From IMG/VR virus record IMGVR_UViG_3300005533_000002, positions 13,117 to 77,116 of that record: a stretch of DNA of 64,000 nucleotides. One strand, written 5' to 3'. Position numbers and translations under genes: made by a program. Shown one piece after another: positions 16,076 through 20,687 of the stretch. How positions within the stretch are numbered: the first letter of the stretch is position 1; the number at the start of each line of letters is the position of its first letter. This stretch comes from a virus. The notes under the pieces were generated by a model, which was not told the DNA's origin, searched no databases, and saw only the letters and a list, made by a program, of their open reading frames with translations.

Positions 16076-16588
16076 TCATGGTGTCACCTTAACGGAAAAA
16101 ATTCTGGCGTTCGCTTGTCCGCCGATCTGGCCTGGCTGCGAGCCGGTATCGAGTACAAGGAATTGCACGGATACCTTTTCGCCAGCATGCACAAGCCGTC
16201 CCGTGCCCGCCGGGAAGAACTCGGCAGTAGCGGCGCAGTCGTACATCGTAACAGGGTTTTCCTTGTGCGGACCACGCAGAAAGAGCTGCGTGCCGTTGTG
16301 AATAAGAATGAAGTGTGATTCCAGCACAGATCCCTTGCCGTAGCCGATCCAAGGCGACCAACCGATAAGGTAGCGGTCCTCTGGCCAAGTGAGATCGGCG
16401 TTTTCTGTCTGGATTTGTCCCAGCGCCGGTTTGAGTACATCGGTGCCGAGAATATCGACCTCGACGGACTGCATCGACTGCACGGGCGCCACTGCGGTTG
16501 TCCGCGTCTTGGGATGCGTTGGCGCCCCATCCAGAACCGGGCCGAGCGAGGCCCCGAGCAGGAAGAGAGACAGATAGACAAATTTCAT
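16076..16588 (-). CDS. Secreted hypothetical protein
   Basis: Signal peptide MKFVYLSLFLLGA; AGGAG RBS. Confidence 0.6.
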   Translation of the reverse strand: MKFVYLSLFLLGASLGPVLDGAPTHPKTRTTAVAPVQSMQSVEVDILGTDVLKPALGQIQTENADLTWPEDRYLIGWSPWIGYGKGSVLESHFILIHNGTQLFLRGPHKENPVTMYDCAATAEFFPAGTGRLVHAGEKVSVQFLVLDTGSQPGQIGGQANARIFSVKVTP

Positions 16589-16599
16589 GGTTGAGTCTC

Positions 16600-17145
16600 C
16601 TACGCTTTCAGATTACCGTGCCGGTATGGGCGAAGCTGGTTGAATGCGTTTTTGGCGGCGATGGCGCCAGCCAAGTCGATGTGAAGATATTCTGCCAAGT
16701 CCATGATGCGAATCACGGCATCGGCCAGCTCGATGGCGAAGCCATCCGGTTTGGGCATCCCCGTTTTGCGATCTACCTTAGGCACCCACTCGCCTTTGCG
16801 GTTGCGAAAACCAGCCGCAAAGACTTCGTACAGCTCATGTCCTTCGTTGCCTGTCCGGAAGAACTCGACGGCTTCGCTGATCTCGGAATGGACCAGTATA
16901 AGCATTTCCAGGATGTTGCGCGATACTTTTCCTGTGCCGGCACATTCGCCGCACTGGAAGCCAAATTCCGGGCTGCCGCTCCAACCGGAGCCCTCGCAGA
17001 CCTGGCAATCGTGCCAACCTTTTTCTTTGGAAAGGGCGTGAACCCGCTTCTGCCATTCGCGAATTGAATCGTCTGGAACGATGTCGCCACCAGCGCCAGG
17101 GTTGAGAGTGACGCTCTGATAGCCGCCAATGTCATTCGCGCTCAT
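16600..17145 (-). CDS. MazG-like NTP pyrophosphohydrolase with inserted Zn finger
   Basis: LVHSEISEAVE...ELADAVIRIMDL...K..FN..RPYRHG; CQVCEGSG/CGECAGTG insert. Confidence 0.85.
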   Translation of the reverse strand: MSANDIGGYQSVTLNPGAGGDIVPDDSIREWQKRVHALSKEKGWHDCQVCEGSGWSGSPEFGFQCGECAGTGKVSRNILEMLILVHSEISEAVEFFRTGNEGHELYEVFAAGFRNRKGEWVPKVDRKTGMPKPDGFAIELADAVIRIMDLAEYLHIDLAGAIAAKNAFNQLRPYRHGNLKA

Positions 17146-17681
17146 AATTCGCCCCCTTGTTGTGCAGCGAGAAGACTGAGAAAAGAACGCACGCACTGAG
17201 CCGCATTCATGCCCCGCAGCATGTTCCACGGCCTTGGAACCAAGATTGCTTGGCCACCGCTGCGCAAGAACTCGATAACGTTCTTGTCGCTATCGTCAAT
17301 CAGCACCCGGCCCGGACCAGAGCAGAAATGCTTCGCTGGACCCATGAGATAGCGCCGACCGTAGTTCGGCATGTGGATGTTGATCCAAGCAAGCTTCCCC
17401 TCAAGGCACCCCCTGGTGAGACAGGGCGAGGTAAGTAAACAGACGTTTTCCGAGCCGAAGCAATCTTCGACAAGGCTGAGAATTTGCCGTCCGTCTGGTG
17501 TCTAGTCGAGCCCGGCCCAAAATTCTTCGTCACATTCATCCCAGAATTCCGCCGGACTTACCGGTAGATTCCGGTCAAAATCCCACGTTTCCACCGTGAT
17601 GCCGAAGCGCTTCTCGACGGCTTCCGTAAACCCCACCAAGACGCCATCCATGTCGAGAAGGCATTGCATTTTCTTGTTCAT
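17142..17681 (-). pseudogene. HAD-family 5'(3')-deoxyribonucleotidase interrupted by in-frame TAG at 17502-17504
   Basis: Manual translation: LLDMDGVL...FWAGLD*TPDG...LLTSP...GKLAWI...LIDD; ATGA overlaps at both ends. Confidence 0.8.
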
Positions 17682-18244
17682 TCCATGTCCCCCTTTGCCA
17701 CCGTGAATTTGATCCGCTTCCGAGCGAAGCGGTGCTTTGACCCTCCTAGCCCATCTGCTTCTCGGGGGCTTCTGTACAGGTAGGCCGAGCCATCCTCATG
17801 AACGTTGATCCAAGCCTCAATCGTAAGTTTTTTGAGCTTGGAAGCCAGATCGGTTTTAGGCTTGGACTTCAGCTCTCGGAAAAGTTGCAGAGAAATCATC
17901 GTGTAGGTCGCCAGATCAAGCAGTGAATCCTCTAAAGATTCGTTTTCAAGACGGCCGTTCTTGATGACACTTTTGATGCGCGTCACCTTGTCGTTGGCCC
18001 GGATCATGGCGCCGACCCACGCCGGCGTGGCGAACTCTTCACTGGCTCGGATATTGGCCAATGGATTCTCGTCCGTACCGTAGTCCTTGGACTTCTTGGC
18101 GTGAATCGCAATGATCTCGTTGGCTATTTCCATGAATCCATTGCGATCCGAAGAGAAAACGGTAACGGGAACAAGAACCTCTTCTGGGCCCATGCACCCA
18201 TCAACAAGTACCGTTCTTTTGGGAGCGAATTCATCTTGTGCCAT
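17678..18244 (-). CDS. DUF1599/nucleotide-modification-associated domain protein fused to WxNV domain
   Basis: KKSKDYG...N...IRANDKVTRI...ESLEDSLLDLATY. Confidence 0.75.
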   Translation of the reverse strand: MAQDEFAPKRTVLVDGCMGPEEVLVPVTVFSSDRNGFMEIANEIIAIHAKKSKDYGTDENPLANIRASEEFATPAWVGAMIRANDKVTRIKSVIKNGRLENESLEDSLLDLATYTMISLQLFRELKSKPKTDLASKLKKLTIEAWINVHEDGSAYLYRSPREADGLGGSKHRFARKRIKFTVAKGDME

Positions 18245-18301
18245 GTCCCGTCCTTTCTGTTAAGTAGCGGAAAACCCTTGATAAGCAGAAAAAGCCGATA
18301 G

Positions 18302-19760
18302 TCATCGATCGAATTGGGACTGATGGTTAGTTGCATAAGCCATCAATCTCTTGTGTAGAATTCTAAAAGCAAACGCAGCTTGCAACGCCACAACTCCATT
18401 GCCGGCTGCCCTGAGCTGATCAACCCGATATTGGTCTATTGCCACCTTTTTAAGGCGTTCCGTCTTCCCAACTCTGCCAGGCATTCGGCGCCGCAAACCT
18501 TGGTAGTCCTCTTTATGGGAAGAAATTCCTGTTGGCAAATCAGGCACTGTTTCACTTTTCTCTTCGGCTGACTTCCAATTGCCTGGTCCTCTACGCGATG
18601 GCATTGACTGCATAGAACTCTCACCATATCCGGTTGATTGGCAATGTCCGGATGATGTCTTTGCAAACTGTCTGTAGATCCACAAAGCTCGCACGAAATC
18701 AACGTCACCGCTCGCTGAGCGCGCTTCCTGGATGCACGCTTGGATGGCTTCAACAGCTTCTTGGCTTCCCCGTGGCACTTCCGAGAGCAGTATTTGACTT
18801 TCTTCCAATCCTTGCTCTCGATTGGCAACGAACAGTTCAAGCAGACTTTCATTAATTCTTCTCCAGTTATCAAAGTCCACCAACTTGGCAATCCCATCAT
18901 CCAGGAAACGAATGCCGGGTTCAGTCGCCGGCGCGAGGTCCGGACGTTCTCGCAAGATTTCTGCCCAGACGGATGATACTGATGGGCCTGGAGGGAAAGC
19001 GGCGTTCCGCCCTGAGAAAACCTCTTGTAACCGGCTTTGGCCTCTGTGGCTGTCGGAGTTGTCCACATTAGACATTGTTCGCCAGGGGGGGCGTGAGTTC
19101 TTCTCCAGGGTTTCGCGACTGGCCTCTCCCGATTTGTAATCTCTTGAACTCGGTGTCGCCCACCATACTACTGCCGTTTCCAGGGACAAGTCGTGATGAT
19201 TCTTGTGCCGCTCCCGTATTGCTACTCTGCCACCATTGGGCACCTTGCAAGTGGGCCAAAATAAAGACTCTCTTGCGGATATGCGGGGCGCCGATCTGGG
19301 CAGCCGAGAAAGTTTCCCAGCAAGCATCATACCCGAGCGCGGCCAGCGACCCGCAAACGGAGTCGATTCCTCGAACAAGGAGGGCGTCAACGTTTTCCAC
19401 GAAGACGTAAGATGGTCGAACTTCGCCAACGATTCGAGCCATTTCGTACCAGAGACCGCTTCGCTCGCCACGGATGCCGGCCATCTTGCCGGCGTTGCTG
19501 ATGTCCTGGCACGGGAAGCCGCCAACGACGCAATCCACAACTCCGCGCCACGGTTTGCCGTCGAAGGTTCGGATATCTGACCAAATAGGGAACGGAGCCA
19601 AGCAGCCTTCTTGCATGCGTTGTACCAGTAAGGCGCAGGCATAAGCCTCCCTCTCCACGCCGCAGACGACGCGAGAGTTTGTAACGGCCAACTCGACTCC
19701 AAAGTCAAGTCCGTAGCAGCCGCTGAAGAGGGACAGCACGTTAAAGGCATGTGAATCCAC
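18302..19760 (-). CDS. DNA cytosine-C5 methyltransferase split by a +1 frameshift at C7 (19085-19091)
   Basis: Motifs I (SLFSG), IV (GFPCQD), VI (ENV), VIII (RKRVF) in 19068-19760; motif X (RVDQLRAAGNGVV) in the next frame ending 18302. Confidence 0.8.
18436..18852 (-). CDS. HNH/Zn-finger endonuclease-like gene nested in another frame of the C5-MTase
   Basis: GGAG RBS plus ATG 18852; YCSRKC, CELCG...QRHH.D...LCSQCH, CLICQQEF...CGAEC. Confidence 0.7.
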   Translation of the reverse strand: MKVCLNCSLPIESKDWKKVKYCSRKCHGEAKKLLKPSKRASRKRAQRAVTLISCELCGSTDSLQRHHPDIANQPDMVRVLCSQCHRVEDQAIGSQPKRKVKQCLICQQEFLPIKRTTKVCGAECLAELGRRNALKRWQ

Positions 19761-19784
19761 ATTACTCCGCTCGCTCGTTAAAAA

Positions 19785-20687
19785 TCACGTTGTTGCAGTA
19801 ATATCGAACATCACTAACTTACCCTGTTCCGCACAGCGCCTCGTTGCCAGATCGATCTGTGACTGCCTGATATCGATGCCGATTCCGTTTCGTCCCAGCC
19901 TGTCTGCCACAGCAACCGTAGTGCCGCTACCCGAGAACGGGTCGAGAACTGTCCCGCCCGGCGGACAGAAGCTTTTGATGAAAAACTCAACCAGCTTCTC
20001 GGGGAATGGGGCTTCATTCTGCGAGGCATACTCATCTCCGCCCATGAGGCCGCATCCAACTGGTACGCTAATGATGTTGCCGGGGTTAGAAATATGGGGA
20101 TGGATGTATCCATTTGAATCCAGCTTTAATTTTCCTTCTTTACCCCTGCTTCCGCAAGTTGTTGTTTTGTTGCCGATTCTTCGCCCATCTGGCAAGCGGT
20201 GGCTAGCCGCGCCGCCGCTCTGGTATTTCGGCTCATGGCCACATGCCGTGTTGTCCGAGTACGGCAGCTTTCCTTTTCGGGTAACGCAGATGATAAATTC
20301 GTAATCGTTACGCAGCCAATCCGGGCCGCCAGAGCCTGGTATGCCAACGCGACGGAATATCGGTGGCTTGCGCAGATTGAAGCCGGCTCCGTGCAAGTCA
20401 GCCATCAGTAGGGCTGGCGTGGCGGACCAGCGGAACTTAGTCGTCTTCCCCTCGATGACGCACGCGATCAGACCCCGACAGACGCGCGCGCATTCGCCAA
20501 ACACTTTCATCATCCAGGCAACGTATTCCTCGCCGCGCAGATTGAATCCGATCCCGTATGTCCGAGCGTCCTCGTAAGGCGGAGAAAACATACACAGGTC
20601 TACCGAGTCGGCCGGCATCGTCCTTATGACTTCAAGGCAGTCGCCACAGTGGAAGTTCCAGGACACAGGCAGTTCCCCCATGTTCAC
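19785..20687 (-). CDS. Beta-class amino (N4-C/N6-A) DNA methyltransferase
   Basis: FSPPY before VLDPFSGSGTT. Confidence 0.9.
   Translation of the reverse strand: MNMGELPVSWNFHCGDCLEVIRTMPADSVDLCMFSPPYEDARTYGIGFNLRGEEYVAWMMKVFGECARVCRGLIACVIEGKTTKFRWSATPALLMADLHGAGFNLRKPPIFRRVGIPGSGGPDWLRNDYEFIICVTRKGKLPYSDNTACGHEPKYQSGGAASHRLPDGRRIGNKTTTCGSRGKEGKLKLDSNGYIHPHISNPGNIISVPVGCGLMGGDEYASQNEAPFPEKLVEFFIKSFCPPGGTVLDPFSGSGTTVAVADRLGRNGIGIDIRQSQIDLATRRCAEQGKLVMFDITATT

What the first reader, a model, noticed from the sequence alone, without database searches (positions are those of the whole stretch)
18436..18852. HNH/Zn-finger gene overprinted inside a DNA methyltransferase without breaking its frame
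Seen: a 138-aa HNH-like ORF with its own GGAG RBS and ATG lies between DDGIAKLVDFDN and RVDQLRAAGNGVV of the C5-MTase C-terminal frame, and that frame has no stop across the whole ~420-bp insert. From memory these two segments are nearly adjacent in related phage MTases. I see no intein ends or obvious intron. Inference: a selfish endonuclease tolerated by read-through in another frame, a splicing-free way to invade a gene.
Basis: partly seen in the sequence, partly recalled or inferred. Interest (0 to 1): 0.7.

Follow-up and report, generated by a model that had tools for sequence, protein, structure and literature searches.

The report
Hidden HNH gene inside two-frame methylase

Summary
Observation confirmed. 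On the minus strand a 138-aa HNH ORF (ATG 18852, TAG 18438-18436, GGAG 18864-18861) fills a 441-nt insertion between ...DGIAKLV and DQYRVDQLRAAGNGVV. The methyltransferase frame has no stop across it. About 75 of 80 homologous viral loci, and the closest relatives (64-69% identical), lack the insertion.

The open frame is not chance. Resampling synonymous HNH codons keeps it open in 0.1% of trials. Seventeen other loci carry a relative of this HNH (37-70% identical among the 11 aligned), always between motifs IX and X, always with the methyltransferase frame open (Fisher p 4e-22 and 4e-12). No intron or intein signature was found.

- The host is an M.EcoHK31I-like two-frame methyltransferase, with motif IX in the +1 frame, so three frames are in use.
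- The HNH is in frame with the motif-IX chain, and here no stop separates them.
- A C7 run (19091-19085), identical in independent metagenomes, breaks the catalytic chain upstream.

The principle was published by Arsenault, Gosselin and Gogarten in 2025 (ShiLan domain). This scan has already noted the same arrangement on other DNA. I class it as a new variant of a known kind. Homing, read-through translation and methylase activity are inferred, not shown.

The parts
19068..19760 (-). Alpha-N ORF (230 aa, GTG 19760, TAA 19070-19068): C5-methyltransferase motifs I-VIII
   Evidence: PF00145 E 3.8e-35, profile positions 1-168; phrog_363 E 1e-56; 64-69% identical to insert-free representatives
19085..19091 (-). 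C7 homopolymer that shifts both overlapping frames by +1 relative to the family's canonical layout
   Evidence: Frames switch here. Removing one C in silico gives alpha of 485 aa and beta-HNH of 441 aa. The run is identical in independent contigs X3 record 16 and X5 record 23.
18302..19762 (-). 486-codon open frame. Upstream of C7 it is the +1 (beta) frame with WxTP repeats. Downstream it is the alpha frame: FPPGP..RPDLAPA, the read-through of the insert, and motif X.
   Evidence: phrog_1008 matches the N part (E 5e-19) and phrog_29583 the C part (E 7.5e-13).
18853..19068 (-). Beta-C segment (ATG 19068 overlaps the alpha-N stop as TAATG): one WxTP repeat and motif IX, continuing without a stop into the HNH (ORF B, 210 aa)
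   Evidence: phrog_1008 E 1.6e-6 at residues 44-67. The same +1-frame motif occurs in 65 of 66 family loci.
18874..18924 (-). Motif IX (LNPAFVSWMMGLPSWWT), in the HNH frame. The same DNA reads EPGIRFLDDGIAKLVD in the alpha frame.
   Evidence: Codon-position entropy shows the +1 frame is the selected one here.
18437..18877 (-). 441-nt insertion (boundaries ambiguous by the 3-nt GAC): 25-nt leader with the ribosome-binding site, then the HNH ORF
   Evidence: Absent from about 75 of 80 viral homolog loci and from P0001-P0005, and from the closest representatives
18861..18864 (-). Shine-Dalgarno GGAG, 8 nt upstream of the HNH ATG
   Evidence: GGAG(G/A) sits at the same spacing in most related loci.
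18436..18852 (-). HNH endonuclease ORF (138 aa): N-terminal CxxC..CxxxC, core CxxC-LQRHH-N-CxxCH, C-terminal zinc finger and GRRNALKRW
   Evidence: phrog_1271 HNH E 8e-8. P0007 is 50% identical and has the same N-terminus. AlphaFold2 pLDDT 92. The top structural matches are nearly all HNH nucleases, Z 4.1-4.7. Purifying selection acts on this frame.
18389..18403 (-). Motif X (GNGVV) of the alpha chain, downstream of the insert
   Evidence: Invariant in the alignment to homologs; phrog_1008 positions 294-322

Best explanation
The host gene is an M.EcoHK31I-like heterodimeric C5 cytosine methyltransferase written in two overlapping frames. The alpha chain carries motifs I-VIII and X. A beta chain in the +1 frame carries WxTP repeats and motif IX. 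A compact cassette (ribosome-binding site plus a 138-aa zinc-finger HNH nuclease ORF, 441 nt) is inserted just after the motif-IX codons and just before the lead-in to motif X.

In the beta frame the HNH is a downstream cistron. Here it is also fused to beta, because the usual stop codon reads TTA. In the alpha frame the cassette adds 147 codons. Their HNH-synonymous codon choices avoid stops, so alpha can be translated straight through as an extra, probably unstructured loop at a position where alpha sequence is already weakly constrained. The HNH is made from its own GGAG/ATG.

The cassette most likely spreads by homing: it cuts insert-free alleles in co-infecting phages and is copied in during repair.

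Shown here: the insertion, its absence from relatives, family-wide stop avoidance, purifying selection on the HNH frame, and no intron or intein signature. Inferred: read-through translation, nuclease activity and target, homing, and whether this copy's methyltransferase still works given the C7 frameshift.
For: - The insert is defined against empty alleles.
- Probability that the alpha frame stays open, given the HNH protein: 0.0008-0.0011.
- 17 other loci have the same HNH family between motifs IX and X. In all of them the motif-X frame is open and the third frame is closed. Per-locus P is 0.0000-0.022; Fisher 4e-22 and 4e-12.
- Third positions of the HNH frame are the most variable: 1.36 vs 0.94 and 0.80 bits.
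- HNH fold: pLDDT 92; best matches are HNH nucleases; PHROG HNH hit.
- A conserved ribosome-binding site precedes the ATG.
- Two-frame host: the +1 frame is open in 65 of 66 family loci and selection alternates between frames. Precedent: M.EcoHK31I (PMC2836561).
- Disjunct distribution: alpha-N is 64-69% identical to insert-free proteins but 40-50% to other HNH-bearing ones.
- No Rfam hit and no Pfam intein hit.
- The published model is the same in principle (PMC11855218).
Against: - No expression, protein or cleavage data exist for any member.
- In this phage the alpha chain is interrupted upstream by the C7 frameshift, which is real in independent samples. A single read-through alpha cannot be made without a +1 slip, so the methyltransferase may be off or split here.
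- HNH identity between loci (37-70% among the 11 aligned; 41-49% to the window) is similar to methyltransferase identity. One ancient insertion followed by many precise losses is not formally excluded.
- The empty-allele target site was not identified.
- The low AlphaFold2 confidence of the alpha frame comes from a single-sequence run and is weak evidence.
Confidence: 0.75

Rival explanations
1. The HNH is not selfish but recruited. It could be a nuclease partner of the methyltransferase (a nested restriction-modification-like pair). In this phage it could be a beta(motif IX)-HNH fusion whose nuclease is steered by the methyltransferase's DNA-binding module.
For: The HNH is always in the same place and frame relative to motif X, and in frame with beta in the two-frame hosts. 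Here no stop separates beta from the HNH, giving a 210-aa ORF. Small zinc-finger HNH enzymes include restriction enzymes such as Hpy99I, which is among the structural matches.
Against: Most family members, and the closest relatives, lack the HNH altogether. In the other two-frame loci a stop codon ends beta just before the HNH ATG, so the fusion is peculiar to this phage. The compact cassette with its own ribosome-binding site at a conserved motif is typical of homing endonuclease genes.
Confidence: 0.12
2. One-off insertion into a dead gene: the methyltransferase is already inactivated by the C7 frameshift, and the open frame across the HNH is luck.
For: Alpha is broken at the C7 run in this phage and in independent samples. 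4.8% of equal-length +2-frame windows in this phage are open by chance.
Against: Synonymous resampling gives 0.1%. The same open frame holds in 17 of 17 diverged relatives, most of which have an uninterrupted alpha ORF of 424-693 codons. Motifs IX and X are intact here.
Confidence: 0.05
3. The insert is removed after transcription or translation, as a group I or II intron with an ORF, or as an atypical intein.
For: HNH ORFs are common in phage group I introns. The insertion lies between conserved motifs, as introns and inteins do.
Against: Rfam gives no match at E<=1 over 18000-20000. 417 of the 441 nt are ORF, leaving no room for a ribozyme core. The alpha-frame insert begins with D or F and ends with AI followed by D, so it has no Cys/Ser at position 1 and no HN-Cys/Ser/Thr at its end. 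Pfam finds no intein domain. Selection for a stop-free, in-frame host reading would be pointless if the insert were spliced from RNA.
Confidence: 0.04
4. Assembly or sequencing artefact: a chimeric join or homopolymer error creates the odd frames.
For: The record is a metagenome-assembled viral genome, and a 7-base homopolymer sits at the frame switch.
Against: Contigs from three runs of a different study, seven years later, match with 0 differences and 0 gaps across both insert junctions and the C7 run.
Confidence: 0.02

Closest known systems
ShiLan domain and the Pacc40 gp60 insertion: hidden out-of-frame HNH endonucleases in actinobacteriophage DNA methylase genes (Arsenault, Gosselin & Gogarten 2025, Genes 16:178, PMC11855218)
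   Same: [quoted passage not shown] An alternate frame encodes an HNH with flanking zinc fingers that nearly fills the insert, and the stop codon lies in the last bases. No intron or intein features are present. The distribution is disjunct. The host-frame peptide is predicted with low confidence and the HNH frame with high confidence.
   Different: - The window's HNH has no tblastn match to any of 50,697 GenBank phage records even at E<=5, so it is a different HNH lineage. I did not verify that the published phages are in that collection.
- This HNH is 138 aa; the published ones are 195 and 160 aa.
- It has a canonical GGAG and ATG, whereas the paper found no ribosome-binding site and proposed leaderless GTG initiation.
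- The host here is a two-frame alpha/beta C5 methyltransferase, so three frames overlap and the HNH lies in the beta frame directly behind motif IX. The paper does not describe this.
- The samples are soil and mine metagenomes, not mycobacteriophages.
- I did not test whether ShiLan gp65 belongs to the same methyltransferase family.
M.EcoHK31I, a natural heterodimeric C5 methyltransferase (as described in PMC2836561)
   Same: Alpha carries motifs I-VIII and X. Motif IX is supplied by a second polypeptide encoded in another frame inside the alpha gene. Here and in 65 of 66 related phage loci motif IX lies in the +1 frame, and selection alternates between the frames.
   Different: In the phage family the +1 frame is open over almost the whole gene and also carries WxTP repeats. 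No HNH insert is reported for EcoHK31I. Sequence homology to EcoHK31I itself was not tested, and neither was a two-chain enzyme.
Free-standing homing endonuclease genes that split a host gene (for example mobE in the Aeromonas phage Aeh1 nrdA gene; recalled from my own knowledge, not checked here)
   Same: A nuclease gene without an intron or intein, inserted inside a conserved phage gene that apparently keeps working.
   Different: There the host gene becomes two separate ORFs. Here the host frame runs through the nuclease gene without a stop.

Membership tests
Hidden out-of-frame HNH insertion element in a phage DNA methylase (ShiLan-domain type) | Insertion inside a methylase gene that is absent from close homologs | tested here: met
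   the flanks are adjacent in about 75 of 80 loci and in the closest representatives
Hidden out-of-frame HNH insertion element in a phage DNA methylase (ShiLan-domain type) | Host frame has no stop codon across the insert, and the insert length is a multiple of 3 | tested here: met
   441 nt with 0 stops. P=0.001 by synonymous resampling. 17 of 17 related loci are open.
Hidden out-of-frame HNH insertion element in a phage DNA methylase (ShiLan-domain type) | An alternate frame encodes an HNH endonuclease with zinc fingers that fills the insert | tested here: met
   phrog_1271 E 8e-8; invariant CxxC, RHH and CxxCH; pLDDT 92; HNH nucleases are the top structural matches
Hidden out-of-frame HNH insertion element in a phage DNA methylase (ShiLan-domain type) | No self-splicing intron or intein features | tested here: met
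   No Rfam match at E<=1; no Pfam domain in the host-frame ORF; no Cys/Ser1 or HN+Cys/Ser/Thr ends
Hidden out-of-frame HNH insertion element in a phage DNA methylase (ShiLan-domain type) | Sequence homology of the HNH to the published ShiLan or Pacc40 HNHs | tested here: inconclusive
   No match in the GenBank phage collection at E<=5 apart from short HNH-core hits. I did not confirm that the published phages are in the collection, and I made no direct pairwise comparison.
Hidden out-of-frame HNH insertion element in a phage DNA methylase (ShiLan-domain type) | Active homing (gain of the element by empty alleles) | not testable with these tools
   Only indirect evidence: disjunct distribution and purifying selection on the HNH
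M.EcoHK31I-type two-chain C5 methyltransferase | One frame carries motifs I-VIII and X | tested here: met
   PF00145 on alpha-N. Motif X is aligned to homologs. In this phage the two parts are separated by the C7 frameshift.
M.EcoHK31I-type two-chain C5 methyltransferase | Motif IX is encoded in a different frame within the same gene | tested here: met
   LNPAFVSWMMGLPSWWT lies in the +1 frame. The motif is conserved there, with that frame's wobble positions the most variable.
M.EcoHK31I-type two-chain C5 methyltransferase | Both polypeptides are made and both are required for activity | not testable with these tools
   No RNA holder was listed and there is no biochemistry
HNH (beta-beta-alpha-metal) nuclease | H-N-H catalytic motif flanked by CxxC pairs on a beta-beta-alpha core | tested here: met
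   CELCG..LQRHHPDIAN..LCSQCH is invariant across 10 sequences. The model has strands 63-66 and 78-81 and helix 82-92. Matches: 5h0o Z 4.7, 4h9d Z 4.5, McrA, Hpy99I.
Intein | Cys/Ser/Thr at position 1, terminal His-Asn, a +1 Cys/Ser/Thr, and Hint-domain blocks in the host frame | tested here: not met
   The host-frame insert reads DFDNW...KKVAI followed by D; no Pfam intein or Hint hit
Group I or group II intron carrying an endonuclease ORF | A ribozyme core recognisable by covariance models, and no constraint on the host frame inside the intron | tested here: not met
   No Rfam match. Only 24 nt of the insert lie outside the ORF. The host frame is under stop-avoidance selection. Splicing itself was not assayed.

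The most novel reading that the evidence does not exclude
In this phage the locus is a three-frame switchable unit. The C7 run, which shifts the alpha and beta frames together, would act as a +1 ribosomal or transcriptional slippage site, or as a phase switch that turns the whole methyltransferase on or off. The loss of beta's stop codon (TTA instead of TAA/TGA) would make a beta(motif IX)-HNH fusion, tethering the nuclease to the methyltransferase's own DNA-recognition module. That would give a nuclease with the methylase's specificity.
Probability: 0.12. Interest if true: 0.7.

Novelty: new variant of a known kind. Interest (0 to 1): 0.45.

Why it matters
This shows that the 2025 'hidden HNH' trick is not confined to a few mycobacteriophages. 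An unrelated HNH lineage does the same thing in at least 18 environmental phage loci.

The quantitative result is that the host frame is protected from stop codons while only the nuclease frame is under amino-acid selection. This family also has a canonical ribosome-binding site, often placed directly behind the stop of the preceding chain. That suggests an answer to the question the paper left open, namely how the hidden nuclease is translated.

The locus is also a clean natural case of three reading frames in use over one stretch of DNA. Standard gene callers annotate it as one or two ordinary genes.

Tried and rejected
- No RNA holder was listed for this DNA, so nothing can be said about expression or splicing.
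- Contigs of other runs showed no empty allele and no variation in C-run length. Contigs drop rare variants, so this proves nothing about minor variants.
- Foldseek against the PDB gave no match at E<=0.001 for the HNH model. A profile search of PDB sequences gave only zinc-finger noise.
- tblastn of the 210-aa ORF B and of the HNH against GenBank phages gave nothing useful. Mycobacterium phage Jung gene 55, a weak hit, is a free-standing gene and not relevant.
- A close-relative scan of viral contigs with the alpha-N protein found nothing.
- L001-L004 and L110 are unrelated or partial HNH or zinc-finger matches. They show no open host frame and served as informal negative controls.
- The single-sequence AlphaFold2 run of the alpha-C frame was uniformly low in confidence (pLDDT 39), including in the real methyltransferase parts, so it says little.
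- I first took the frame-0 motif 'LNP..WMMG.P..WT' for a chance echo. I rejected that after seeing it conserved in the +1 frame of all related loci.

Full report
**What is there.** The window belongs to a complete 77-kb viral record with direct terminal repeats. All features below are on the minus strand.
- ORF A (19760..19068, 230 aa) carries C5-methyltransferase motifs I-VIII (PF00145, E 3.8e-35).
It contains ...AFPPGPSVSSVWAEILRERPDLAPATEPGIRFLDDGIAKLVDFDN..., then 147 odd codons, then ...DQYRVDQLRAAGNGVVALQAAFAF.
- A third frame (frame 0) holds a 138-aa ORF from ATG 18852 to TAG 18438-18436, with GGAG 8 nt upstream.
- That ORF has three Cys clusters and a CxxC-LQRHH-N-CxxCH core.
- It matches PHROG HNH endonucleases (E 8e-8).
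- AlphaFold2 folds it with mean pLDDT 92 from a 10-sequence alignment.
- Its best structural matches over residues 37-96 are nearly all HNH nucleases: GVE2 HNH Z 4.7, Gme HNH 4.5, TagI, McrA, Hpy99I. These Z values are modest, so they agree with the sequence motifs rather than prove the fold.

**It is an insertion.**
- Five homologous full-length methyltransferases read ...DG(M/I)A(Y/K)LV-D(E/Q)(S/Y)R..QLR..GNGVV with nothing in between.
- In 80 related viral loci the two flanks are at a constant, adjacent spacing in about 75.
- Among the 70 listed representatives closest to ORF A, almost all show adjacent flanks. None matches the host-frame translation of the insert; the best E-value is 0.59.
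- The insert is 441 nt (18877..18437, ambiguous by a 3-nt GAC). It consists of a 25-nt leader with the ribosome-binding site and then the HNH ORF.
- Contigs of three mine-metagenome runs from another study match both junctions with 0 differences.

**The open host frame is not luck.**
- Keeping the HNH protein fixed and redrawing synonymous codons from this phage's usage, the methyltransferase frame stays open in 0.08-0.11% of trials.
- Empirically, 4.8% of equal-length +2-frame windows in this phage's genes are open.
- Relatives of this HNH (37-70% identical among the 11 aligned; 41-49% to the window; signatures LQRHH and GRRNALKRW) occur in 10 metagenome loci and 7 further viral contigs.
- In all 17 the HNH lies between motif IX and motif X. 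The frame at +2, which carries motif X, runs through it without a stop. The +1 frame is closed.
- Per-locus resampling P values are 0.0000-0.022, with Fisher combined values of 4e-22 and 4e-12.
- In most loci that frame is one uninterrupted ORF of 424-693 codons from motif I to motif X.
- Across the aligned HNH genes the third codon position of the HNH frame is the most variable (1.36 bits vs 0.94 and 0.80). The nuclease is therefore under amino-acid selection, while the host frame is only kept free of stops.
- Weakly related HNH or zinc-finger hits outside methyltransferases (L001-L004, L110) show no such open frame.
- Selection for an open, in-frame host reading argues against RNA splicing.
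- Rfam finds no intron. The host-frame peptide has no intein ends or domains.

The stretch upstream of the HNH in the HNH's own frame reads MWTTPTATEAKAG...RRLNPAFVSWMMGLPSWWT. It matches methyltransferase PHROGs at motif IX (phrog_1008, E 1.6e-6).
- The same DNA read in the motif-X frame gives ...EPGIRFLDDGIAKLVD.
- In all related viral loci inspected the +1 frame encodes RRLNPAF.CWLMGWP.WWT.
- In 65 of 66 loci that frame is open over nearly the whole gene. This includes Burkholderia phage phi1026b gp68, which is annotated as a single CDS.
- Codon-position entropies show selection alternating between frames. The alpha frame is selected in motifs I-VIII, FPPGP..RPDLAPA and motif X. The +1 frame is selected in the WxTP repeats and motif IX.
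- This is the layout described for M.EcoHK31I, where alpha has I-VIII and X and a beta chain with motif IX is encoded in another frame inside alpha (PMC2836561).
- The HNH cassette therefore sits in the beta frame directly behind motif IX, and three frames are in use over 18877-18437.
- In the other two-frame loci a stop codon ends beta immediately before the HNH ATG, and a GGAG(G/A) lies in the last beta codons.
- In four or five loci (L092, L095, L097, L099, and L098 as a variant) motifs IX and X share one frame and the HNH is at +1 to both.

**Peculiarities of this copy.**
1. The codon before the HNH ATG is TTA, not a stop. Beta-C runs into the HNH as a 210-aa ORF, which the public collection holds as P0006.
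2. A C7 run at 19091-19085 shifts both frames by +1 relative to the canonical layout. Alpha-N therefore stops at TAA 19070-19068, five codons after the run. The beta-N frame flows into alpha-C, and beta-C starts at ATG 19068, overlapping the stop as TAATG. An ATG at 19075 opens alpha-C.
3. Removing one C in silico gives alpha of 485 aa and beta-HNH of 441 aa.
4. The C7 run is identical in independent contigs (X3 record 16, X5 record 23), so it is real. I cannot tell whether it marks an inactive gene, a three-piece enzyme, a phase switch or a +1 slippage site.

**Mobility.** ORF A is 64-69% identical to insert-free proteins (P0009, P0010, P0013) but only 40-50% identical to the catalytic domains of other HNH-bearing methyltransferases. 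L089 behaves likewise. This disjunct pattern fits repeated invasion. One ancient insertion with many precise losses is not excluded, because HNH and methyltransferase divergences are similar.

**Comparison with what is known.** Earlier notes of this scan, on other genomes, pointed to Arsenault, Gosselin and Gogarten 2025. I read the paper.
- It describes the ShiLan domain: an insertion in a mycobacteriophage DNA methylase that is stop-free in the host frame, lacks intron and intein features, and encodes an out-of-frame HNH with flanking zinc fingers.
- It describes a second case in Pacc40 gp60, and similar elements elsewhere.
- This family differs in several ways. The HNH has no detectable similarity to any GenBank phage record. 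It has a canonical ribosome-binding site, whereas the paper found none and proposed leaderless initiation. The host is a two-frame alpha/beta C5 enzyme, a point the paper does not raise.
- I class this as a new variant of a known kind. The scan has already found the same arrangement several times on other DNA.

**Limits.** The target site, the homing, and the tolerance of alpha to the 147-aa loop are all inferences.

Noticed in passing
window 19085-19091 (minus strand C7): A single homopolymer shifts both overlapping methyltransferase frames at once. One C fewer would restore a 485-aa alpha and a 441-aa beta-HNH. The run is identical in a second study's contigs. Two ATGs in the other two frames (19075 and 19068) bracket the resulting stop within ATGTCTAATG.
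   Followed up: partly
L008-L087 and L088:933-2260 (Burkholderia phage phi1026b gp68): In 65 of 66 related phage C5-methyltransferase genes the +1 frame is open over almost the whole gene. It carries WxTP repeats and motif IX, and selection alternates between frames. GenBank annotates a single CDS. PHROG family phrog_1008 ('DNA methyltransferase') matches the +1-frame translation, so it may be built partly from such alternate-frame ORFs.
   Followed up: partly
window 18853-18855: The codon before the HNH ATG is TTA, where the related two-frame loci have TAA, TGA or TAG ending the beta chain. Here beta(motif IX) and the HNH therefore form one 210-aa ORF.
   Followed up: partly
L091:2860-3418: This methyltransferase carries a second insertion of about 190 codons between motifs I and IV. 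It is also stop-free in the host frame, and its +2 frame encodes another HNH (CQECG..LRAHHIKH..LCKKCHNEMH). That makes two hidden nucleases in one gene.
   Followed up: partly
window 19785-20687 (minus strand): An N6/N4 DNA methyltransferase gene (PF01555, E 2e-29) lies directly upstream of the C5 locus, so the phage carries two methyltransferases in tandem.
   Followed up: no
L095 and L099 (HNH ORFs): These two HNH copies end early. They lack the C-terminal zinc finger and the GRRNALKRW tail, yet the host frame is still open. They may be decaying copies.
   Followed up: no
window 16076-17229: Several pairs of long ORFs overlap on the same or opposite strands (for example 16076-16588 with 16084-16581, and 16498-17067 with 16600-17229). 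I did not examine whether any is more than a compositional effect.
   Followed up: no
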